The notes beneath the pieces were generated by a model, which was not told the DNA's origin, did not search any database, and worked only from the letters and a program-made list of their open reading frames with translations. A program made the position numbers and the translations under genes. Source: a virus (taxonomy: Duplodnaviria > Heunggongvirae > Uroviricota > Caudoviricetes). From it: DNA of 64,000 nucleotides. Shown here piece by piece: positions 29,127 through 46,678 of this stretch (positions are counted from its first letter, which is position 1; every line of letters starts with the position of its first letter). Where the stretch lies: IMG/VR virus record IMGVR_UViG_3300043313_001192, positions 25,598-89,597 of that record; one strand, written 5' to 3'.

Positions 29127-29226
29127 CTGTCTCTCCTCACACGTTGTCGTCCGTCTCGCCCCACACTGGGGATTCACCTGTCGCTCAACCTAGCGACCGT
29201 CCGCCGCGCTAGGCTCTCCCCCGCTC

Positions 29227-29505
29227 GGCAGGACTGGCTCGGCAAGTCGGGGCGAGGCTTGAGTTGGCATGGCAGGGCTGTTGCGGTTCGGCAGGGTGCG
29301 GTGTGGTGAGGTCCGCCGTGGTGAGGCGGGGCAGGGCAGTCAAGGCTTGGTGCGCCCCGGCACGGTTTGGCTGGGCAGCCGCGACTCGGTGCGGCTCGGC
29401 ACGGCTAGGCATGGTGAGGCAGGCGGGGTCCGGCAGGGCACGGCAGCGTTTGGCAGGGCATGGCAGGCACGACTAGGCATGGCAAGGTGAGGCGTGGCGA
29501 GGCGC
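29227..29505 (+). ncRNA. orphan GGY-NN pentamer array (putative VIPR-type guide RNA locus)
   Basis: Parses as ggc-at ggc-ag ggt-gc ggt-gt ggt-ga..., with GGCAGGC punctuation at 29418 and 29462; same grammar as 42410-45893. Confidence 0.7.
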
Positions 29506-34363: not shown

Positions 34364-34735
34364 TCACGTCTCCGCGGAATCGTTGCCTGCGCCGTTGTCC
34401 TCGTGCTGCCGCGGACCGTCTTCATCGCCGGTGCGCCGGAACGTCACCGGCGTCCCGAGCAACTTGTAGATCTCCTGGGCCTTGTCGGCGTCGATCGCTA
34501 CCCAGAGCCACTTGTCGCCCCACGGACTCATCATCTCGATGTGGAAGTCCTCACCGACGATCCCGGCCAGAACGTCAACGGCCTCCCCGTCACCGGTGGC
34601 CTCCTCCAGCTGCTCCAGGACCTCGGCGTCCAGCTCGGGCTCCTTGCCGTAGTCCTCGGCGCTCTCCTGGGTGGTCACCATCACCGTCGGCTCCCCGGCC
34701 TGATCGGCCAGTCCGTGCCGCTGCTGCTCGCTCAT
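34364..34735 (-). CDS. acidic hypothetical protein
   Basis: GGGAG RBS, ATGA coupling. Confidence 0.65.
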   Translation of the reverse strand: MSEQQRHGLADQAGEPTVMVTTQESAEDYGKEPELDAEVLEQLEEATGDGEAVDVLAGIVGEDFHIEMMSPWGDKWLWVAIDADKAQEIYKLLGTPVTFRRTGDEDGPRQHEDNGAGNDSAET

Positions 34736-37017
34736 ATGAGTCTCCCGCCAACCATCAGTTTCCTCTTCTTGTCGTAGGTCATCCGCAGGGTCCGGCAGGT
34801 GTTCTCCAGCTCGTCGCGGACTGCTGCCTTGCTGAGCTTGGGTGCATCCTCACCGGCGAACATCACCCAGGTGTTGAACGAGACCACCATGTCGGCGTGG
34901 CTGAACGTGTCGATCGCACTGCCGGTGACCTCCAGGCAGGCGCCGGACCACTTCGCGAAGATGTTGTGCTTGGCTCGTTCATCGGTGGCGGTCTCGGCCC
35001 ACGCCGTGGTGTCGCCCCAGCCGTGCTCGGCCCACGACTTGGCGCCCTCCAGCATCCAGGCCAGCGCCAGCCGCAGCTCGGCCGGTTGCCGGGTGATCTG
35101 CGACCTCAGGTCAGGGATCACCTCGCGCTCGCTCATGCTGTACTCGAAAGGGAAGAACTTGAGTCGCCGCCAGACCGCCTCGTCGGGGATCTCCAGCGCG
35201 TGGTTGGTGCTGAGCCACAGCGAGCACTCCGGCACGAAGGAGATCTCCTCCTTGCCGTAGGGCAGCCGCCCCGAGAGCGAGTCGCCACCGGAGAGCGACT
35301 TGAGCATCGGCAGGTTCACCTCGGCCTTCATCGGCGGCTCGGAGAACGTCAGCACCCGCTGGCCCACGATCGCGGCCACCGAGAAGTCCGGGTTGCCCTT
35401 GTCACCGAAGAGCAGGTTGTGGCTCATCGCCTTGCCGTAGGAGCCGACCACCTTGAGCAGGATCTCCGAGAACGTGGACTTGCCCGAGCGGGTGGGTCCC
35501 TTCAGCACGAAGACCGCGTCCACGTCCCCGTCCACACCGCGGCGTCCGTACAGCGAGGCTCCGGCCGCGCGTTGCAGCAGCCGGAGGTTGTCGGGTCCCA
35601 TCTGGTGTTCCAGGTCGGTGACGAACTTGTGGAACCAGCGCCCGGCCCCACCCTCGGAGGCCACGTCCCACAGGTGCTTGAACTCCCCACCCGGCCCGTC
35701 GTCGTACGGCGCCCCCAGTGCCTTCGAGACCCGCCGGGTCCGGGCGTCCAGCTCGCATTCACCTGTCCGCAGATTCACCAGCCGCCCGATCCCGGCCGTC
35801 ACCGGCAGCCCGGCGATCCAGCCCTCGGCGTCCCAGTTCAACGCTGAGGGCACCAGCACCCGTTCGTCGGACTGCAGGTCACCGAGGATCGAACTCGTCG
35901 GTCGCTGCTGGGCCTTGCCCGCCCACTTGAACGCGTCCTTGGACAGGGTGTCCTTGCCGTCCAGCTTGGACTGCCTGCCCTCGGCCAGGTGCACGTCGGG
36001 CATGTCCATGCAGTAGGACTTCAGCATCGTCTCCGACCGCTCCGGGCCACCCCAGCCGGACTCGGTCCAGACCCGCCAGGCCAGCCCTGGTGTGTAGAGC
36101 ATCTTGTCGCCGTGGGTGTCGATCAGCCGCCGCACATCGCCCCGTCGGGTGTACGTCCTGGGATCGCCGCCCACCAACGGTGTGCCGGGCCTTGTGCGCC
36201 ACGGGTCGTCGCGGTCGATCCGGGCGACGTCGTCGACCAGCCCGGCCGCGGTCAGGCGCATCATCAGCGCCGAGGTGGCATCGGTCAGTCCGGCGATCGG
36301 GTCGACCAGCACCTTTGAGCCACCGGACCACTCATAGCCCGGTCGTGGGGCCAGCACCGCGAACGCGCCGTCACCGAGCACCCAGACCCCGGTGACCAGC
36401 TCGATCTCGGTGCGCCCTCCCATGACTGCGTCGGACTCCCCGATCCGGAAGAACCAGTGCTGCCCGCCCGAAGGCGTCGTCTGGGTGAGCACGTGCCCAG
36501 TCATCTTGAACCTGGCCCTGGTCATCTCGGCGTGCTCGCCGACGTCGAGGACCACGATCTTGGACTCCGAGCCGGTCAGCACCGCCAGCCCGATCCAGCC
36601 CGCCTTGACGCGGAGGTCACTGGCCGGGAAGACCCGCTCGACGTCCTCCTCGACCCGAGCCACGCCCAGCCCCGAGACGAGGTGCTTGCCCCAGGTGGTG
36701 CAGGCTTCGCCTTCCTTGCAGCAGCAGCCGACCAAACCAGCTCCGGCGGCACCGGGTACGGCGGCGACGGGCATCCAGACCGGCGCGATCGCCCAGCCGA
36801 ACTGGCTGATGTAGCCCTTCGCCCAGCGCCACAGGTTCTTGACCGCGTCCGGGATCGGCGGCTCGGCGGCTGGCGGTGGCACTCCCGGAGGAGTCGGCAC
36901 ACGCGGCGGTGTCGGTGGGCCACCCACCACACCGCTCCCACCGGGCGCTGGTGGCGGTCCCGGTGTCGACGGCGTGCCTGCTCCTGGTGGAGGCGGCGTG
37001 ACCCCACTCACGGTCAC
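34732..37017 (-). CDS. Prim-Pol (bifunctional primase/polymerase) domain fused to D5-like SF3 helicase
   Basis: GWAIAPV...CCC..C..WGKH...IGLAVLTG...TTPSGGQHWFF; Walker A GPTRSGKST, FSEPP, WRRL; GTG start overlaps the upstream stop (GTGA). Confidence 0.8.
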   Translation of the reverse strand: MTVSGVTPPPPGAGTPSTPGPPPAPGGSGVVGGPPTPPRVPTPPGVPPPAAEPPIPDAVKNLWRWAKGYISQFGWAIAPVWMPVAAVPGAAGAGLVGCCCKEGEACTTWGKHLVSGLGVARVEEDVERVFPASDLRVKAGWIGLAVLTGSESKIVVLDVGEHAEMTRARFKMTGHVLTQTTPSGGQHWFFRIGESDAVMGGRTEIELVTGVWVLGDGAFAVLAPRPGYEWSGGSKVLVDPIAGLTDATSALMMRLTAAGLVDDVARIDRDDPWRTRPGTPLVGGDPRTYTRRGDVRRLIDTHGDKMLYTPGLAWRVWTESGWGGPERSETMLKSYCMDMPDVHLAEGRQSKLDGKDTLSKDAFKWAGKAQQRPTSSILGDLQSDERVLVPSALNWDAEGWIAGLPVTAGIGRLVNLRTGECELDARTRRVSKALGAPYDDGPGGEFKHLWDVASEGGAGRWFHKFVTDLEHQMGPDNLRLLQRAAGASLYGRRGVDGDVDAVFVLKGPTRSGKSTFSEILLKVVGSYGKAMSHNLLFGDKGNPDFSVAAIVGQRVLTFSEPPMKAEVNLPMLKSLSGGDSLSGRLPYGKEEISFVPECSLWLSTNHALEIPDEAVWRRLKFFPFEYSMSEREVIPDLRSQITRQPAELRLALAWMLEGAKSWAEHGWGDTTAWAETATDERAKHNIFAKWSGACLEVTGSAIDTFSHADMVVSFNTWVMFAGEDAPKLSKAAVRDELENTCRTLRMTYDKKRKLMVGGRLI

Positions 37018-38411
37018 GGGTCCGGGGTCCCGTGCATCGTCGTGGTGAACGGGCTCTCCAGAGCCTCCAGCTCCCGCTCCCGGCCCCACTGCTCCATCCA
37101 GCCCGTCTCTTCCCGCCATGGCCCCGAGAGCCTCCCCACCACCATGTCGCTGTCGCCCTCACTGCCTACGTCGATCCGCCGACGCGCCTCGTCCTCATCA
37201 CCTGCACAGGCCAGGTCGACCCAGGCACGCCACTTGCTGATCACCCCGACGCCAGCAGCCGTGCCCCGACGCCCAGAACCCCGTAGTCCGGACGCGAACC
37301 CGGTCGCGGGGGAGTCCGAGTAGACCACCAATAGGTTCGGCATGTCGTCGTAGACCACGGCGGACCGCTCACCGGCGTCGAACCCGCTGCTTGAGCCCGC
37401 GTCGTCGAGCTTGCCCGGACGCTCCCAGATCTGTTCGCGTCCGGCGGGGTCCGGGCCGGACACGCACCGCCACCCGAAGGGCACCAGCACGTCCTCCCAG
37501 CCCAGCACTTCGTCGGCGATCCTGTCCAGGTCTCCGAGCACTGGGCCAACGCTGGTCCACTCCCCCTCGTCCCCGCCTCCAGCCACCTGGTCGGTGTAGC
37601 CGGGCGAGTAGCGCTCCAGCAGCGCGTCCAGCAGCGCACCCCGGTCCAGCTCGGGATCCAGCCGGGGGATCTCCAGAACGTCACTGACGTGGCTGCCCAG
37701 AGCGTCAATGACGTTTTCCAGGCTGAGACGGCCGTCCCAGCTCTTGGACGAGCCCGGCCAGCGGATCACACCGGAGGGTCGGGCCGAGTCCTCGTCCGGC
37801 CCGGCGCGCCAGTTCAGGGTGCCCGGCATCCGCATCACCCGCGTGGTGTCCCAGACCCGGTCGATCTTCTTGACCGAGGTCTCCCCGACCCAGCCGACCA
37901 GTGCTCGGACAAGGCGCGAAGCGTCCACCCCTGGCACCGGTTCCCGCAACGGGATCCAGTACTGCACGCCCCACCCGGAGCCGATCACCAGGCTCGCCTC
38001 GGACAAGTCCGGGCCGAGGCACATGTCGACCACGTCGATCGCCTCGCCGATGTAGCTGAAGTAGTCCGACCCTTCGCGGCCGGGTGCCTGGCAGTCGACG
38101 TCGAGCCACAGCGCGCCAGCGTGCCCGCGCAGGGCCGCACCACCACGCGGGTAGGGACGCTTCCGTGTGCCGTGCGGTTTCTCCACCAGCCCGACGCAGC
38201 CCATGTAGACCTCGCGGCCCTGCTCGGACCACCAGGCCAGCTGCTTGATCGTGTCCGGGGCGAGCAGGGTGGCCACGTCCCAGTGCTGGGCGTGCCACTT
38301 CCCACGGGGGCTCTTGATGGAGACCTCGACCAGCTCACGATCCGCCGCCCATCCGTAGAGTCCCATGAGCACCCTGCGGGCGCTCTCAGGCGTGTGGTCC
38401 ACCTCGGTCAT
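37014..38411 (-). CDS. RepB-like (AEP superfamily) DNA primase domain protein
   Basis: LWLDVDC...VIGSGWGVQYWIPL...DTTRVMRMPGTLNWR; AAGGA RBS. Confidence 0.65.
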   Translation of the reverse strand: MTEVDHTPESARRVLMGLYGWAADRELVEVSIKSPRGKWHAQHWDVATLLAPDTIKQLAWWSEQGREVYMGCVGLVEKPHGTRKRPYPRGGAALRGHAGALWLDVDCQAPGREGSDYFSYIGEAIDVVDMCLGPDLSEASLVIGSGWGVQYWIPLREPVPGVDASRLVRALVGWVGETSVKKIDRVWDTTRVMRMPGTLNWRAGPDEDSARPSGVIRWPGSSKSWDGRLSLENVIDALGSHVSDVLEIPRLDPELDRGALLDALLERYSPGYTDQVAGGGDEGEWTSVGPVLGDLDRIADEVLGWEDVLVPFGWRCVSGPDPAGREQIWERPGKLDDAGSSSGFDAGERSAVVYDDMPNLLVVYSDSPATGFASGLRGSGRRGTAAGVGVISKWRAWVDLACAGDEDEARRRIDVGSEGDSDMVVGRLSGPWREETGWMEQWGRERELEALESPFTTTMHGTPDP

Positions 38412-38528
38412 CGTCTCTCCGTCCTTGGCCCCGGCACGCGTGGAGCACAGGTCAACGCTCACGGCTTGGGCAGAAACAACACTACAGCGGATGGTCAGGA
38501 GCAACCATCTGACTACAGCGCTGTTTCA

Positions 38529-39343: not shown

Positions 39344-40303
39344 CTATGCGCCGTCGAGGACCGCCACCAGGTGCTCGTTGTCCCAGGTGTGCGCCGCAGT
39401 CATGTAGTCACCTGGGCGGACCTTGACCCCCAGCGCCCGCGTCGCCATCCCGCGTGCCTCGACCCAGCGTTCCTGGCCGACGTAGAGATCCACCAGATCG
39501 ACCACAGCATCACGCCGACCGGGATCCTCGGCCACCGCCTTGAGCAGCCACCGCTCCGGGTAGTGGTCCATCTTGGCCAGGTAGCGGTACGCCTCGGCGC
39601 GCTCCGCGGACCAGGTCGCCTGTGGCATTCCCAGGTAGGAGACGAAGGTGTCCCGCGCGATCTCCCAGCGGCCGACGAAGAAGTACTCGCGCGCCAGGTA
39701 GAACCGCTGCCGCGGATTGTCCCGCTCCTCCTTGACCGCCAGCTCCAGCAGCTCCAGGTAGGACCCGCGCGACTTGGTGTCATCGGCGTAGTGCTCGATG
39801 CCGAACCCGCCCGCCACTGCCGGGACCTCCAGGTCACCGCGACTGGCCGAGGGCACCAGCACCTCGTGCACCGCACCGTGCCAGGCCCAGCCCTCCCGCG
39901 AGAAGCACCGGTCCGCGGTGAACGAGACGTCCGGCACACCGGGCTCCACCCAGTTCCAGACGTAGTGGTAGCTCCACCGGCGCGCGGACGGGTCCTCGGC
40001 GATCGTCGCCTCCAGTGCTGCGCGCCAGCCGGGCACCAGCACCTCGTCGGCGTCCAGGGTGATCACCACGTCGACCTCGGGCGGCAGCAGCGCCAGCCCC
40101 GCGTTGCGGGCCAGGTCGAAGCGCCACGGCGCGACGTGGATCGGGGTCACGTCGATGTCCAGGTCACTGGCCAGCTCGACGGTGCCGTCAGTGCTGCCGG
40201 TGTCCGCGATCTGCAGCAGGTCCGCATCGTCCGCCGAGGCCGCCCACCGGGGCAGGTTCGCCTCCTCGTTGAGGGTGATCGTGTGCACCGCGATGACGCT
40301 CAA
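39344..40303 (-). CDS. glycosyltransferase family 2 with TPR-like C-terminus
   Basis: ITLNEE..L...ADTGSTDGT...FDLARN...LDADE; FYLAREY TPR-like helices. Confidence 0.85.
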   Translation of the reverse strand: MSVIAVHTITLNEEANLPRWAASADDADLLQIADTGSTDGTVELASDLDIDVTPIHVAPWRFDLARNAGLALLPPEVDVVITLDADEVLVPGWRAALEATIAEDPSARRWSYHYVWNWVEPGVPDVSFTADRCFSREGWAWHGAVHEVLVPSASRGDLEVPAVAGGFGIEHYADDTKSRGSYLELLELAVKEERDNPRQRFYLAREYFFVGRWEIARDTFVSYLGMPQATWSAERAEAYRYLAKMDHYPERWLLKAVAEDPGRRDAVVDLVDLYVGQERWVEARGMATRALGVKVRPGDYMTAAHTWDNEHLVAVLDGA

Positions 40304-41709: not shown

Positions 41710-41885
41710 CGGCGCGCGAGGTCCGCCACGCAGACGTAGTTGCCGGGCGTGCCCATCGGCTTGCCGCACATCGCGCAGTGCGTCGTCGGACCCTCGGTAC
41801 CGAGATGTTCGGGGCAGACGTAGTGCGAGTCGATGTTCTTGACGTGCCCGCCCTTGGCGCAGTGGCCGTACTTGCGTCGTGCCAT
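41706..41885 (-). CDS. small zinc-finger protein
   Basis: TGATG coupling; HCAKG..CPEH..HCAMCG..C. Confidence 0.6.
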   Translation of the reverse strand: MARRKYGHCAKGGHVKNIDSHYVCPEHLGTEGPTTHCAMCGKPMGTPGNYVCVADLARR

Positions 41886-42352
41886 CAGCCCGCCTTGTTG
41901 TCGCCAGCGATGTCGTCCAGGATCTCCTCGACGAAGCCCTCCATGTGCTGGTAGCGCTTCTTGAAGGTGGTCCAGTCGCGGCGCATCTGCTTCATCATCA
42001 GCTCGCGCTGGATCGGGTCCAGGATGATCTCCTCGATCGGCTCGTAGGTCGACGTCGGCGAACCGTCCGCCTCGCGCCGTACCCAGAACGCCCGGAGGTC
42101 GGCACGCTTGTTGCCGATGTCCGCCTTGTACTTCACCCGCAGCAGGTTCCCCGCCTCGTGCAGCCGCCACTTCCGCGCCGCCTCGGTGTCGTCCCAGGTG
42201 AACCGATGGTGCAGCGGGTGGTCGGGATCAGCAGCTTCCTCGACCACCACCTCGGGCGTCAGCGTGCCGCGCTTCTCGCGGATCTCCAGCAGCACGTCGC
42301 GCAGGTTGTTCGGCGTCTGGCCCTCAGTGGCCTCGTCGGTTCCGTTCGTCAT
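41885..42352 (-). CDS. conserved phage protein immediately downstream of the GGY-NN array (putative accessory protein)
   Basis: L.EIREKRGTLTPEVVVEEAADPDHPLHHRFTWDDTEAARKWRLHEA; GGGAGG RBS. Confidence 0.75.
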   Translation of the reverse strand: MTNGTDEATEGQTPNNLRDVLLEIREKRGTLTPEVVVEEAADPDHPLHHRFTWDDTEAARKWRLHEAGNLLRVKYKADIGNKRADLRAFWVRREADGSPTSTYEPIEEIILDPIQRELMMKQMRRDWTTFKKRYQHMEGFVEEILDDIAGDNKAG

Positions 42353-42409
42353 TGCGTCCCTCCCGTTTCAGGTTGGTGAATCGTACCTCACCACCTCTGT
42401 TCCGTCAGC

Positions 42410-45400
42410 AGCTTGCCGTGCCTGCCGAACCGCGCCTTGCCGCACCCACCTATCCATGCCGGTCCCAGCCTCACCACGCCTGCCTTGCCCGGCCGCGCCT
42501 AGCCTTCTCACACCGCGCCTGCCCCACCATGCCGAGCCTGTCCACACCTCACCCAGACGGGCCTGCCCAGCCACGCCTTGCCTTGCCGCACCTGACCGTG
42601 CCACGGCTGCCTGGCCGCACCACACCCAGTCGTGCCAGATCCCGCCTAGCCATCCCCTGCCTGCCTCGCCCTGCCTGACCGCACCCCACCATGCCTAGCC
42701 CCACCGCGCCTGCCATGCCGTACCAGACCTTGCCGAGCCAACCGGGCCTGCCTTGCCAAGCCAACCGCACCTAGCCCTCCGCGCCGCGCCTGTCCATGCC
42801 TAGCCCTGCCTGCCGCGCCATGCCGTACCGGAAGCTACCGGGCCGGAACACGCCGGGCCGCACCTAGCCATGCCCTGCCGAGCCTGCCTACCGTGCCGTG
42901 CCGTACCGGGCCTAGCCCCGGTCGACCATGCCTTGCCTGCCAAGCCCAACCCGGCCATGCCTAACCCTGAGCACCGCGCCACGCCTGCCTGACCAAGCCG
43001 CGCCTGACCGAACCAAGCCCCGCCGAGCCCACCTCGCCTGCCGGGCCTGGCCGTGCCTGGCCTAGCCGCACCTATCCATGCCCCGCCTGCCAAGACCCGC
43101 CGTGCCGTGCCATCGGTACCGAGCCCTACCAAACCACGCCTGCCGCGCCGTGCCAGGTGCTGCCGTGCCGACCACGCCTAACCTTGCCCCGCCTGCCCCG
43201 CCATGCCCAGTCGCACCCTGCCGCGATCGCCATGCCCAGCCGTGCCGTTCCTGCCATGCCGGACCTCGCCCTCCCGGCCATGTCGTGCCCTGCCCCGCCT
43301 GCCCTGCCGAGACTGGCCGAGCCATGACATGCCTTGCCTCGCCTGGCCGTGCCGAGCCCGGACCCGCCTGCCTTGCCATGCCGGGCCGGGCCGTGCCTAG
43401 CCGACCTAGCCTTGCCTGCCGTGCCCCGCCTAGCCTGACCGAGCCATACCCCGCCTGCCCAGCCACTCCTTGCCGTGCCTTGCCATCCGCGCCTCGCCTG
43501 CCGAACCGGACCCCGCCTTACCCAGCCACACCGACCAAACCTCGCCTGCCAAACCTGGCCTTGCCGTGCCACACCAAGACGAACCTGGACATGCCCACAC
43601 GTGCCCTGCCGACCCGAACCACACCGAGCCATGCCTGCCGCGCCACGCCTTGCCTTGCCATGTCAACCGGGCCTGGCCCTGCCGCCCGCGCCTTGCCACG
43701 CCTGCCCGACCACACCACGCCTTGTCCTGCCCACCATGTTCCGCCTGCCGGGCCTAGCCCTGCCTTGCCAGACGATCCTGGCCGCGCCTGCCCTGCCTTG
43801 AGCGCCTTGCCTCGACCCGCCGTGCCAGGACTGCCGGACCGTACCGTGCCCAGCCTCACCACGCCGTGCCTAGCCGCAGCTGCCGGACCGTGCCTTGCCC
43901 AGCCACTCCATCCGTACCTAGCCTGCCGCGCCCTGCCTTGGCCCGCCACGACCCGCCCGGACTCGCCCCGCCTAGTCATGCCTGCCCAGCCGAACCACAC
44001 CTAGCCTGACCATGCCCTGACCTGCCTGCCGAGCCACGCCGTACCGCGGAAGCCACGCCGATGCCTTGCCCCGCCTGCCCCGCCGCACCTAGCTGCACCG
44101 CACCAAGACCCGCCTGCCGCGCCTGGCCGAACCTTGAATGCCTTGCCCTCCGCGCCGCACCGAGACACACCTGCCCAGCCCCGTCGTGCCATGCCTGACC
44201 GCGCCCCGCCTGACCAAGCCTGCCTTGCCGAACCGGGCCGCACCATCCTCGCCATGCGGTGCCGTGCCCCGCCTTGCCTGCCGTGCCGCGCCCTGCCAAA
44301 CCTAGCCAAGTCGTGCCCTGCCATGACGAGCCGTGCCGGACCTGCCTCACCACGCCCAGCTCCGCCGAACTCCCCGAGCCCAGCCATGCCTGCCACACCC
44401 GGCCTTGCCACACACTGCCGCGCCCACCGATCCTGGCCGCGCCCAGCCGTGCCTGCCCGGCCCCGCCGCACCTCGCCATGCGCTGCGATACCACGCCACG
44501 CCCTCCGCGCCTGCCTGGCCCAGCCACACCGTCCCGTGCCACGCATCCCAGACCACGCCATGCCTGCCTCACCTAGCCCTGCCAAGCCCGGCCAATCCTG
44601 GGCGTGCCGGGCCGAGCCAAGCCTGCCGGACCAAGACGTGCCATCCCCTGCCGTTGCCATGCCTGGACCTGCCGCACCGAGCCACGCCTGCCTGACCGCA
44701 CCAGACCCGGCCGCACCCTGCCTAGACCACCGCGCCATGCCTGCCAGGCCCTGCCTCGTGAAGCCCAGCCCCGCCTCGCCGTGCCCAGCCAATCCGCGCC
44801 TGCCCCACCGATCCAAGCCCTGCCTTGCCTAGGCAAACCACGCCTGCCTGGCCTAGCCGGACCAAGCCGAACCCCGCCTACCCCGACCCGCCTGCCGGAC
44901 CGCACCTTGCCGTCCGCGCCGCGCCCAACGATGCCCAGCCACGCCTGCCGAACCGTGCCACGTCGTACGCCGCCAAGCCGGACCCAACCTGCCTCGCCAC
45001 ACCCAGCCTGACCGTGCCCCGCTTCACCGCGCCTGCCGCGCCTCGCCCACCAAGCCATCCTCGCCGGGACGCATCGCACCTCGCCTGCCGCGCCACGTCA
45101 TGCCACAGCTCGCCGCGACGTACCAAGCCTCGCCTGCCATGCCTCGCCTCGCCTCGCCTAGCCCAGCTCGCCATGCCCAGCCCGGCCTGCCGGGCCGCAC
45201 CGAACGATGCCGAAAGCCACCAAGCCCACCATCCCGAGCCGCACCACGCCTGCCACGCCCCTCCGAGCCTGACCACACCATGCCCTTCCTCGCCTGCCGT
45301 GCCCGACCCTGCCAACCACTCCTAGCCCTGTTCACCATGCGATGCCTGCCCGGCCGGACCGGACCGCGCCGTACCCGCCCCTGCCAATCCCTGCCTAGCC

Positions 45401-45893
45401 CTGCCTGCCACGCCGTGCCCAACCAAGCCCGGCCGGTCCCTGCCATCCCTTGCCATGCCAAGCCTGCCGTGACCCGCCTTGCCACGCCCCGCTTGCCCCG
45501 ACGCGCCTGGCCTTGCCTAGCCTGCCGAACCGTGCCCAACCGAACCAACCGCACCGTGCCCGGCCAACCCTGACCGCGCCAAGCCTGCCAAGCCCCGACA
45601 CGACTAGCCATCCCGCGCCTTGCCCACCACGCCTGCCAGACCAAGCCAAGCCGTACCATCCGCGCCTTGCCGCCCACGCCGTGCCGCGCCCCGCCTGCCA
45701 TGCCGTGCCGCGCCTCACCGCGCCAAGCCTCATCACGCCATGCCCAGCCCAGCCTGCCGGACCTGGACCCGCCGTGCCGTGCCTAGACCTGCCTGCCATG
45801 CCGCGTCGACCGGGCCAAGAATCCCATGCCCCGCCCCGCCTAGCCTGCCCCGCCGAGTGCTGCCCTGCCGCGCCTAGCCTTGCCATCCGTGCC
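42410..45893 (-). ncRNA. ~3.5-kb array of GGY-NN pentamers punctuated by GGCAGGC (putative VIPR-type guide RNA array)
   Basis: Plus strand parses as RCC-NN repeats; 59 exact GCCTGCC by manual count plus degenerate copies, spaced mostly 38-65 nt in 5-nt steps; NN dinucleotides differ between units. Confidence 0.85.
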
Positions 45894-45903
45894 AGGGCAC
45901 AGA

Positions 45904-45938
45904 ACGAGGCAGGACACCCCCCACGGGTCCTGCCTCGT
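45904..45938 (-). other. 12-bp-stem hairpin between the RAMP-like gene and the array
   Basis: ACGAGGCAGGAC / GTCCTGCCTCGT with an 11-nt loop. Confidence 0.75.
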
Positions 45939-45955
45939 CCGGCTCTGATGTGCTG

Positions 45956-46624
45956 CTACTTGATCTCCACCGAGCGGGTCGGGTCGATCATGAAGGTGCC
46001 CATGTCGCCCTTCTTCTCCGGACGCCACTCGCCGACGCCCACACCCAGGCCACCGGCCTCGATCAGCGAGAGCACCGACTCCCTGGTCAACATGGACTTC
46101 ACGTAGGTCACTTCGAGGGTCGTCGACCACTCGGTGAACTGCGGCCGGTAGCGCAGGTCGGTGCCGCCGTTGCCGACGCGCACGACGTCCTCACGCATGA
46201 TCGGCTCGCCCTCGATCCGGACCATCATCTGACCCTCGACCTTGGACATCTCGCCGCTGAAGAACAGCGTCTGCCGGAGGCTGACCATGGTCACCGACTT
46301 GTCGAAGAACCGGGCCGCGGAGACGGTCGCGGCCTTGAACGCGATCGACGGGAAGCCGTAGCCGCCGTCGTCCATCTTGTAGGCCGCGGCCTCGTAGTCG
46401 CCCTCGGGATCCTTGGGCGCCTTCGGGCTCTTGCGGCCCTGCATCGCGTCGAGCATCTGACGCTTCGCCTTCTCCGAGAACTTGTGCATGATCAGCGGCG
46501 CGGATCCGACGATCGGGATCAGCAGCGTCTCGGTGCCGATCCGGGAGATCTCGATCGCCGGGGCGCTGTCGTCAGCTGCGGGAGGAGGAGTCGCTGCGGT
46601 CTTCTTGGCAGGCTTCGTGGCCAT
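45956..46624 (-). CDS. Cas7/RAMP-like RNA-binding protein (putative Vipr effector)
   Basis: N-terminal IPIVGSAPLIMH strand, YGFPSIAFKAA helix, C-terminal Gly-rich loop AGGLGVGVGEWRPEKKGDMGTF; AAGGAC RBS; abuts the pentamer array. Confidence 0.7.
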   Translation of the reverse strand: MATKPAKKTAATPPPAADDSAPAIEISRIGTETLLIPIVGSAPLIMHKFSEKAKRQMLDAMQGRKSPKAPKDPEGDYEAAAYKMDDGGYGFPSIAFKAATVSAARFFDKSVTMVSLRQTLFFSGEMSKVEGQMMVRIEGEPIMREDVVRVGNGGTDLRYRPQFTEWSTTLEVTYVKSMLTRESVLSLIEAGGLGVGVGEWRPEKKGDMGTFMIDPTRSVEIK

Positions 46625-46678
46625 GTGTCGTTCCGTCCTTGAGGTTGTGTTCCCCACCTTGGGGAATCAGGTGACGGC

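What the first reader, a model, noticed from the sequence alone, without database searches (positions are those of the whole stretch)
42410..45893. Array grammar: GGCAGGC punctuation divides the pentamer run into ~65 distinct, length-quantised units
Seen: 59 exact GCCTGCC (plus strand) and several degenerate ones. Spacing clusters at 38/39, 43/44, 48/49, 53/54, 58/59, 63/64 nt, i.e. 5n+3 or 5n+4, usually 7-12 NN slots. Example 42659-42714 (minus strand): GGCAGGC-GC-GGT-GG-GGC-TA-GGC-AT-GGT-GG-GGT-GC-GGT-CA-GGC-AG-GGC-GA-GGCAGGC. Example 43036-43091 has NN = GG AT TA GC TA CA AC CA CC. Triplets stay conserved while the NN series differ among the units I parsed, which simple slippage of a satellite would not give. 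Inference: GGCAGGC is a repeat/processing signal and each unit is one guide encoding ~16-22 nt of gapped target. The 5n+3 units carry one single-base slot that may mark a register shift.
Basis: partly seen in the sequence, partly recalled or inferred. Interest (0 to 1): 0.85.

Follow-up and report, generated by a model that had tools for sequence, protein, structure and literature searches.

The report
Giant phage VIPR guide-RNA array
The 3.5-kb run of five-base repeats is one of the largest known guide-RNA arrays of a VIPR system (a CRISPR-like phage system first described in 2026), the GGCAGGC marks do separate about 63 different guides, and one guide exactly spells a conserved motif of a bacterial ubiquitin-like (Bub) operon suspected of defending cells against phages.

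Summary
Read on the minus strand, 42399-45903 is 723 GGY-NN units. There are 609 pentamers and 112 tetramers, 68 of them GGCA. GGCA|GGC closes 63 units of 8-14 repeats each, and their NN strings are unrelated to one another.

This is a VIPR array of the tail-less "staggered" kind (bioRxiv 10.64898/2026.04.26.720920, Fig. S18). The upstream 233-aa gene is a Vipr homologue. The downstream 155-aa gene is the usual accessory gene.

New evidence that each unit is a guide:
- A 95%-related phage gains and loses whole units at GGCA|GGC.
- NN positions change three times more slowly than the Y position.
- GGCA is the dominant tetramer in 194 arrays from about 150 loci across phyla.
- Across 833 guides, only the 1-nt-skip rule beats shuffled controls.
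- Own guide A56 (42811-42884) matches 28/28 NN bases in 38 metagenome contigs. It lies on the AIVGLGGTGAYILD motif of bubBD, the E2-E1 gene of type II Bub operons. At least six other phages also carry guides against this gene.

Not shown: RNA ends, the role of internal single-base slots, and targets of the other 62 guides.

This is a new member of a known kind. This scan has already noted VIPR arrays in more than 100 other genomes.

The parts
45956..46657 (-). vipr gene (233 aa): a Cas7-like RAMP protein that would coat the guide RNAs
   Evidence: A single-sequence search hits PDB 36pp_D 'SUSP1 Vipr protein' at E 1.2e-5, with the G-loop GVGEWRPE aligned to GVGDWRPR. A family profile hits the same chain at E 5.9e-13 over nearly the full length. 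The AF2 model has pLDDT 94, and its best Foldseek matches are Csm3/Cas7 subunits. phrog_4652.
45904..45939 (-). GC-rich hairpin between the vipr stop codon and the first repeat, with no T-tract
   Evidence: Read directly from the sequence. A hairpin lies at the same place in L004, L005 and L006. The simple scan does not call it a terminator. Its function was not tested.
42399..45903 (-). Tail-less ('staggered') vrRNA array: 723 GGY-NN units in 63-68 guides, each closed by a GGCA tetramer
   Evidence: No Rfam family matches. No conserved sequence beyond GGC-A-GGC is seen at the boundaries.
42811..42884 (-). Guide A56 (14 NN plus GGCA), with a validated natural target in bubBD of type II Bub operons
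   Evidence: The core pattern is found in 72 metagenome contigs. The full 28/28 NN match occurs in 38 of them and 27/28 in 30. There are 62 distinct target sequences, with free variation only at the skipped bases. The target protein is DUF6791+ThiF, flanked by Multi_ubiq and DUF6527 genes.
41885..42352 (-). Conserved accessory (vap-like) gene, 155 aa, carrying an HPLHHRF motif
   Evidence: phrog_15946. Homologues occur in 133 of 155 vipr loci, always on the same strand downstream of vipr. Its HPLHNRFE region is itself the target of a guide from another system.
29225..29505 (+). Second, small GGY-NN array (about 4 units) 13 kb away on the other strand
   Evidence: These are the only two pentamer arrays in the 177-kb genome.
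45990..46018 (-). Protospacer inside this phage's own vipr gene (codons for EKKGDMGTFM), matched 19/20 by a guide of another phage
   Evidence: The guide is guide 2 of L091 (IMGVR_UViG_3300035156_000168); the skipped bases fall on wobble positions. That phage's own vipr matches only 15/20.

Best explanation
The tract is the guide-RNA (vrRNA) array of a VIPR system in a 177-kb uncultured phage of high-GC bacteria. It lies between the vipr gene and the accessory gene and is read on their strand. Each unit is (GGY-NN) repeated 7-13 times and closed by a four-base GGCA. By analogy with the solved SUSP1 complex, one Vipr protomer holds each GGY and presents the NN pair. The NN pairs of one unit read a DNA target of the form NNxNNx..., usually with x at the codon wobble position, and binding silences transcription. 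The GGCA tetramer shortens one step from 5 to 4 nt and so moves the repeat phase by one base. This marks the end of one guide and the start of the next. It could act as a cleavage site, as a stop for the protein filament, or as both (inferred). The array holds about 63 unrelated guides. At least one is aimed at the nucleotide-binding motif of the E2-E1 gene (bubBD) of type II Bub operons, which are cellular, ubiquitin-like and suspected antiphage systems. Shown here: the grammar, the Vipr homology, modular evolution of units, selection on NN, the 1-nt skip rule in this clade, and the A56 target. Inferred: transcription, processing, filament assembly, and silencing.
For: Vipr homology. Grammar. 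Units are distinct. Comparison with L004, whose Vipr is 95% identical: 51 paired units, 13 own-only and 21 L004-only by the automatic pairing, a few of them caused by mutated boundaries or a moved unit; indels fall at GGCA|GGC or as whole pentamers at the 3' end. Substitutions per site in 460 orthologous pentamers are G1 3.0%, G2 5.7%, Y3 10.4%, N4 2.4% and N5 4.6%; Y3 against NN gives Fisher p 5.6e-7. Several guide pairs keep every NN while 5-6 triplets changed, for example A36/B40 and A61/B68. GGCA makes up 1167 of about 1450 tetramers in 194 arrays, all on the vipr strand, from Actinomycetota to Proteobacteria, Firmicutes and Bacteroidota; cultured Gordonia and Mycobacterium phages are included. 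In the all-against-all search of 833 guides against 2.3 Mb, skip 1 gives 74 hits from 21 guides against 9.5 hits from 8.5 guides in shuffles, while skips 0, 2 and 3 stay at background. Skipped bases fall on wobble positions. A56 target. A control guide of equal information (A09) gave 0 hits in the same collection. Other phages carry guides to four sites of the same gene. No self-targeting is seen at any skip. Published mechanism: bioRxiv 10.64898/2026.04.26.720920 and .720927.
Against: There are no RNA data, so transcription, ends and loading are unproven. The discovery paper itself lists staggered arrays as the architecture it did not confirm by small-RNA sequencing. Only 1 of about 63 guides has a demonstrated target. 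Exact scans of guides A25, A36, A09 and A22 found nothing, or only chance hits. 18% of triplets are not GGY, and 36 of 60 guides hold internal tetramers whose reading is unknown, so some units could be decayed. The terminal A of GGCA matches the target at only 6 of 13 independent sites (p 0.08), and the following base is almost never G, so the exact end of the guide is unsettled. Who carries the targeted bub genes (the host chromosome or mobile elements) is unknown. Only 1 of 401 sampled Actinomycetota genomes had the site, with 2 mismatches, and that genome (G093) is unpublished.
Confidence: 0.88

Rival explanations
1. The array is mostly a fossil. A few live guides sit among many decaying units that persist because the repeat is hard to lose, so the grammar is real but most of the 63 units no longer guide anything.
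For: 18% of triplets are non-canonical, concentrated in the middle of units. 36 of 60 units have internal tetramers, against 21% of guides across the whole clade. Small arrays in cultured phages are much cleaner. No guide with an internal tetramer has a validated target. Only one own guide has a target.
Against: NN positions are conserved three-fold better than Y3 across all 460 orthologous pentamers. Degenerate triplets do not spoil a guide: A56 has two (gtt, ctt), yet all of its NN match. Internal tetramers stay at the same place in homologous guides of phages whose Vipr is only 70-83% identical. The first and the last two units of each guide are 97-100% canonical.
Confidence: 0.2
2. GGCA is not an RNA processing site. 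The array acts as one long RNA on which separate Vipr filaments assemble, and the one-base phase slip alone ends each filament.
For: There is no conserved sequence beyond GGC-A-GGC and no ribozyme or tail. In the solved complex, each GGY is held jointly by two neighbouring protomers at a 5-nt pitch, so a 4-nt step should break the lattice. This last point is inference.
Against: The legend of Fig. S18 in the discovery paper speaks of 'individual processed vrRNAs' with 1-nt overlapping ends. Internal tetramers would then also cut guides into pieces of 2-8 units, which seems too short.
Confidence: 0.3
3. The tract is an ordinary pentanucleotide satellite produced by replication slippage, or spurious protein-coding sequence, with no guide function.
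For: TRF reports many short period-5, 10, 14, 19, 24 and 49 sub-arrays. All six frames hold long ORFs, and Gordonia phage Pipp's array is annotated as a CDS.
Against: Units are unrelated at NN. Boundaries are far more regular than chance. The Vipr gene is adjacent in about 150 loci. NN are under purifying selection. There is a perfect 28-base gapped match to a conserved gene. A period of 5 is not a multiple of 3.
Confidence: 0.01

Closest known systems
VIPR systems with 'staggered' vrRNA arrays (bioRxiv 10.64898/2026.04.26.720920, Fig. S18; structures in 10.64898/2026.04.26.720927)
   Same: A Vipr RAMP protein, an accessory gene, and GGY/NN pentamer guides of about 9-16 repeats. Targets obey the 1-nt skip rule with the wobble base skipped. 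There is no self-targeting. Units abut with a one-base offset and no tail between them.
   Different: There are about 63-68 guides in 3.5 kb, whereas the 194 arrays surveyed here have a median of 326 bp; only the sister phage L004/L082 (4.0 kb, 71 guides) is larger, and L142 (2.9 kb, 50 guides) comes next. Units often have degenerate triplets and internal single-base slots. One target is a cellular Bub operon gene, a target class not mentioned in the main texts of the three VIPR papers. The figure itself could not be viewed, so identity with the published 'staggered' form rests on its legend.
Type II VIPR of Escherichia phage SUSP1 and the Pseudomonas fulva prophage
   Same: The same protein family (PDB 36pp; the G-loop W and R, and the thumb YRP, are conserved), the same repeat code and the same skip rule.
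   Different: In SUSP1 each of its 4 vrRNAs ends in an invariant, roughly 40-60-nt pseudoknot tail. Here there is no tail, only GGCA. SUSP1 guides target a satellite recombinase.
Class 1 CRISPR arrays and Cas7 backbones
   Same: The protein fold (best structural matches are Csm3/Cas7), many guides in one array, and periodic unpaired positions in the guide-target duplex.
   Different: There are no 23-50-nt direct repeats, no contiguous spacers, no cas1/cas2, and pairing of 2 bases in every 5. Guides appear to turn over by unit-level recombination rather than by spacer acquisition.
Phage anti-defence by silencing or mimicking host immunity (for example anti-CRISPR proteins, phage-borne mini-arrays)
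   Same: If the bub operon is host immunity, guide A56 would be a phage tool that disables it.
   Different: The mechanism would be RNA-guided transcriptional silencing of the defence gene itself. This was not tested here.

Membership tests
VIPR system | A Vipr protein (minimal RAMP with RRM core, glycine-rich loop and thumb) encoded next to the array | tested here: met
   PDB 36pp_D SUSP1 Vipr at E 1.2e-5 (single sequence) and 5.9e-13 (profile). GVGEWRPE aligns with the G-loop GVGDWRPR, and LRYRP with the thumb arginine region. The model has pLDDT 94, and its top folds are Csm3/Cas7.
VIPR system | Guide region made of tandem GGY-NN pentamers, about 9-16 per guide, with constant GGY and variable NN | tested here: met
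   723 units, 82% of them GGY. Each guide has 8-14 repeats. NN use is near uniform, and NN strings are unrelated between guides.
VIPR system | Natural targets follow the 1-nt skip rule (NNx), with the skipped base usually at the wobble position | tested here: met
   In this clade only skip 1 exceeds shuffled controls. Own guide A56 matches 28/28 NN in 38 contigs, with free variation only at the skipped bases.
VIPR system | An accessory vap gene in the locus | tested here: inconclusive
   A conserved 155-aa gene lies downstream of vipr in 133 of 155 loci. It has no Pfam or PDB match, and it could not be assigned to vap1-6 of the paper.
VIPR system | No self-targeting by a system's own guides | tested here: met
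   The best matches of own guides in the own genome equal those of shuffled guides at skips 0-3.
VIPR system | vrRNAs are expressed, processed and co-purify with Vipr | not testable with these tools
Type II VIPR (SUSP1-like) | Each vrRNA ends in an invariant structured 3' tail (pseudoknot) | tested here: not met
   Units abut directly. The boundary logo shows conservation only at GGC-A-GGC, and there is no Rfam hit.
Staggered VIPR array (Fig. S18) | Adjacent vrRNAs are offset or overlap by 1 nt, so the end of one marks the start of the next | tested here: met
   Boundaries are a 4-nt GGCA step in a 5-nt lattice. Complementarity of A56 starts right after GGCAGGC. Reading the last unit as GGCAG, with its G shared, is not supported by targets.
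CRISPR array | Direct repeats of 23-50 nt that alternate with contiguous spacers, together with cas1/cas2 | tested here: not met
   The only punctuation is 7 nt. No cas genes were seen among the neighbours.
Type II Bub operon (the target of A56) | BubA (multi-ubiquitin Ubl), then BubBD (E2-E1 fusion), then BubE (DUF6527 serine protease) | tested here: met
   PF14452, then PF20590 plus PF00899, then PF20137, in that order in L180 and L217. The operon definition comes from bioRxiv 10.1101/2024.11.21.623953.

The most novel reading that the evidence does not exclude
The giant array is an anti-host arsenal. Most of its roughly 63 guides would be aimed, like A56, at invariant catalytic motifs of cellular defence or stress genes rather than at rival phages, so the phage switches off host immunity operons by RNA-guided silencing. 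Guides against bubBD recur in at least seven phages. That would be the first phage-side evidence that Bub ubiquitin-like operons matter in infection.
Probability: 0.3. Interest if true: 0.8.

Novelty: new member of a known kind. Interest (0 to 1): 0.55.

Why it matters
First, the staggered, tail-less array is the one VIPR architecture that its discoverers did not confirm by experiment. The comparative data here define its unit boundaries from sequence alone: modular indels, selection on NN, clade-wide GGCA, and a target that starts exactly at the boundary. They also name cultured Gordonia and Mycobacterium phages in which it can be tested.

Second, an array of about 63 guides shows that VIPR can be scaled to CRISPR-like repertoire sizes without any acquisition genes.

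Third, the biologists who described Bub operons could not find a phage that these operons protect against. Phages that carry guides against bubBD point to which phages to try: actinophages of this clade with the guide or vipr deleted. They also point to a new use of VIPR, the silencing of cellular genes.

Tried and rejected
- Megablast of the flank against cultured phages found no match.
- The single-sequence AF2 model of Vipr was useless (pLDDT 34) and was redone with an alignment.
- Self-targets in the own genome at skips 0-3 were no better than shuffles. The same held for the flanks of L004-L006.
- Exact 1-nt-skip scans:
  - A25 gave 0 in viral contigs and 0 in genome contigs.
  - A09 gave 0 in metagenomes.
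  - A36 gave 2 hits in 31-36% GC contigs, judged to be chance.
  - A22 gave 0 in viral contigs, and one 2-mismatch hit in 251 genomes of the order of G001 (a Nocardia genome), at chance level.
- The A56 site was sought in 401 Actinomycetota genomes. There was one 2-mismatch hit, in the unpublished genome G093, so no host was identified.
- NN composition was compared with codon-position models. Positions 1-2 fit far better than the other phases, but no better than a uniform model. The per-guide strand bias was marginal (p 0.055), so this gave no decision.
- Four register models for internal tetramers (3 nt, 2 nt, shared G, shifted) gave no significant hit under any of them.
- The terminal A of GGCA as a pairing base was found at 6 of 13 sites (p 0.08), which is undecided. 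The shared-G 'AG' reading was rejected.
- Simple promoter and terminator scans and an Rfam search found nothing.
- Peptide readings of the other guides (for example A37, IYGERGVGKSA, Walker-A-like) are suggestive only and were not pursued.
Full report
WHAT IS THERE

The window is bases 25598-89597 of a 176,996-bp IMG/VR virus record with direct terminal repeats. The genome has 64-73% G+C. Between two minus-strand genes lies a 3.5-kb tract with strong C-over-G skew on the plus strand. Read on the minus strand it is a lattice of GGY-NN pentamers.

There are 59 exact GGCAGGC inside 42410-45893. In the remaining 60 kb there are 9, plus 11 of the complement. 47 of 58 spacings are 5n+3 or 5n+4.

A Viterbi parse gives 723 units: 609 pentamers, 112 tetramers and 2 hexamers. 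68 of the tetramers are GGCA. Cutting after GGCA, where GG follows, gives 63 closed units. 60 of them have 8-15 repeats (mean 10.9, sd 1.7). Random placement of the boundaries would give an sd near 10.7.

The 5n+3 class arises because 29 of 60 units contain one further tetramer, and 7 contain two. NN strings of different units share no more than shuffled strings do.

WHAT IT IS

That led to three 2026 preprints. VIPR systems consist of a small RAMP protein (Vipr), an accessory gene (vap), and vrRNAs made of 9-16 GGY-NN repeats. The GGY is held by the protein. The NN pairs read double-stranded DNA with one base skipped after every two, usually the wobble base. Binding silences transcription. 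The paper lists several array forms, among them 'staggered arrays' in which vrRNAs derive from '1 nt overlapping positions'. This is the one form it did not confirm by small-RNA sequencing.

The 233-aa gene just upstream (45956-46657) is a Vipr homologue:
- It hits the chain 'SUSP1 Vipr protein' (36pp_D) at E 1.2e-5 alone and at 5.9e-13 as a family profile.
- The G-loop W-R and the YRP thumb region are conserved.
- Its alignment-based model (pLDDT 94) is most like Csm3/Cas7.
- The family is large: 3688 clusters at 50% identity.

The 155-aa gene downstream (41885-42352) has homologues in 133 of 155 vipr loci, always on the same strand after vipr. The array has no tail, ribozyme or other conserved element between units. 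The boundary logo carries information only at GGC-A-GGC, plus a preference for G at the next N, and Rfam finds nothing. The locus therefore fits the staggered form and not the tailed type II form.

EVIDENCE THAT EACH UNIT IS A GUIDE AND GGCAGGC IS ITS BOUNDARY

(1) A sister phage. L004/L082 has a Vipr that is 95% identical and a collinear array of 71-72 units. The automatic pairing gives 51 paired units, 13 own-only and 21 L004-only. A few of the unpaired ones are artefacts of boundaries that have mutated in one phage, and one unit has moved. Differences are whole units bounded by GGCA|GGC, or whole pentamers added just before the closing GGCA.

(2) Substitution rates. In 460 orthologous pentamers the differences per position are G1 3.0%, G2 5.7%, Y3 10.4% (mostly C/T), N4 2.4% and N5 4.6%. 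Y3 against NN gives p 5.6e-7. Some pairs keep all NN while 5-6 triplets changed. The 'variable' dinucleotides are thus the part under purifying selection, as expected if they carry the address.

(3) Clade-wide punctuation. In 194 arrays from 70 cellular genomes and 80 viral contigs, all on the vipr strand, GGCA makes up 1167 of about 1450 tetramers. Vipr identity in these loci goes down to about 32-40%. Cultured Gordonia phages (Pipp, ODay) and Mycobacterium phage Saal have 3-5 units with the same punctuation.

(4) Module shuffling. Nine of 59 own guides have homologues in the arrays of more distant phages, in a different order.

(5) The skip rule. 833 non-identical guides, cut at GGCA, were searched against 2.3 Mb of array-masked loci. 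They give 74 significant hits from 21 guides at skip 1, against 9.5 hits from 8.5 guides for shuffled NN order. Skips 0, 2 and 3 stay at background. The hits fall on the G-loop end of other vipr genes, on the accessory gene (HPLHNRFE) and on an integrase catalytic motif, with the skipped bases at wobble positions. vipr-targeting guides are already described in the October preprint.

A TARGET FOR ONE GUIDE OF THIS ARRAY

Read as antisense codons, guide A56 (42811-42884) spells A-I/M-V-G-L-G-G-T-G-A-Y-I/M-L-D/E. Its sister in L004 differs by two NN, which would change A to S and A to T.

The 11-NN core occurs in 72 metagenome contigs and in no IMG/VR contig. A control guide of equal information gave none in the same collection. 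The full 14-NN guide matches 28/28 in 38 contigs and 27/28 in 30. The contigs have 35-69% G+C. The 62 distinct targets vary freely at the skipped positions and not at all at the read ones. Two of the guide's triplets are degenerate (gtt, ctt), yet their NN match, so degenerate triplets do not break a guide.

Upstream of the first NN the target remains conserved, but the neighbouring unit A55 does not match it. This is direct evidence that GGCAGGC ends the complementarity.

The target protein is DUF6791 plus ThiF, about 400 aa. It is flanked by a Multi_ubiq gene and a DUF6527 gene. This is the BubA-BubBD-BubE arrangement of type II Bub operons. Their antiphage role is suspected from genomic context but has never been shown.

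Guides from other phages hit the same gene at four sites in all:
- the A56 site itself: L006, L105 and the sister phage L082;
- a second site: L088 and L097;
- a third site: L005;
- a fourth site: L099.

The main texts of the VIPR papers do not mention ubiquitin-like or ThiF targets. Other follow-ups of this scan have proposed restriction and methylase genes as VIPR targets in other genomes. I did not test those.

WHAT REMAINS OPEN

Cleavage at GGCA and a simple filament stop therefore both remain possible.

The terminal A of GGCA matches the target at 6 of 13 independent sites (p 0.08). The base after it is almost never G, which speaks against reading the last unit as GGCAG with a shared G.

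Internal tetramers cluster 6-9 units before the 3' end, while the first unit and the last two units are 97-100% canonical. These tetramers are conserved in homologous guides of distant phages. No guide that contains one has a validated target under any register model.

The other 62 guides have no target yet. The host is unknown. Only one of 401 sampled Actinomycetota genomes carries the A56 site, with 2 mismatches. That genome (G093) is unpublished, and this single figure rests on it.

VERDICT

This is a genuine VIPR guide array of the published staggered kind. It is exceptional in size: second largest of about 200 arrays seen here. The kind is known, and this scan has met it in more than 100 other genomes. 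The additions are the sequence-level definition of the unit boundary and the bubBD target.

Noticed in passing
window 29225-29505 (+): A second, small GGY-NN array of about 4 units with GGCAGGC marks lies 13 kb from vipr on the opposite strand, between two divergent small ORFs. Its guides have no hit in the local data.
   Followed up: partly
window 45990-46018 (within vipr): This phage's own vipr gene is matched 19/20 by guide 2 of the array in IMGVR_UViG_3300035156_000168 (L091). It is also matched more loosely (23/28) by a guide of L111, a phage from the same sample as the sister phage L004. The source phage of the L091 guide escapes its own guide (15/20).
   Followed up: partly
L009 5611-5880 (Gordonia phage Pipp, MN234179.1 gene 43): The record annotates a 'hypothetical protein' CDS that lies entirely on a 5-unit GGY-NN guide array directly after the Vipr homologue (gene 42). 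This is probably a mis-called gene.
   Followed up: partly
L010 975-1015 (Mycobacterium phage Saal integrase): Guide 3 of the array in IMGVR_UViG_2639762559_000002 (L109) matches 25/28 NN on the LGHxSxxxTxxxY catalytic region of a Saal-type tyrosine integrase (E about 6e-6 in 4.6 million positions).
   Followed up: partly
window 42399-45903, NN positions: The NN dinucleotides are 50% G+C in a 68% G+C genome. CT (1.5%) and CG (2.8%) are strongly depleted, while AG is 6.6%. Neither a coding-sense nor an antisense codon model explains this.
   Followed up: partly
window 42399-45903, inside the units: Non-GGCA tetramers (GGTG, GGAT, GGTT and others) sit preferentially 6-9 repeats before the closing GGCA. 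The same distribution is seen in the sister array, and the positions are kept in distant homologous guides. Their function is unknown.
   Followed up: partly
window 34732-38504 (-) and 39344-40303 (-): Neighbouring genes include a primase/helicase (DUF5906; phrog_1156), a possible primase-polymerase, and a family-2 glycosyltransferase with TPR. The cumulative GC skew has its minimum at the array's upstream edge, but the array itself causes much of that.
   Followed up: no
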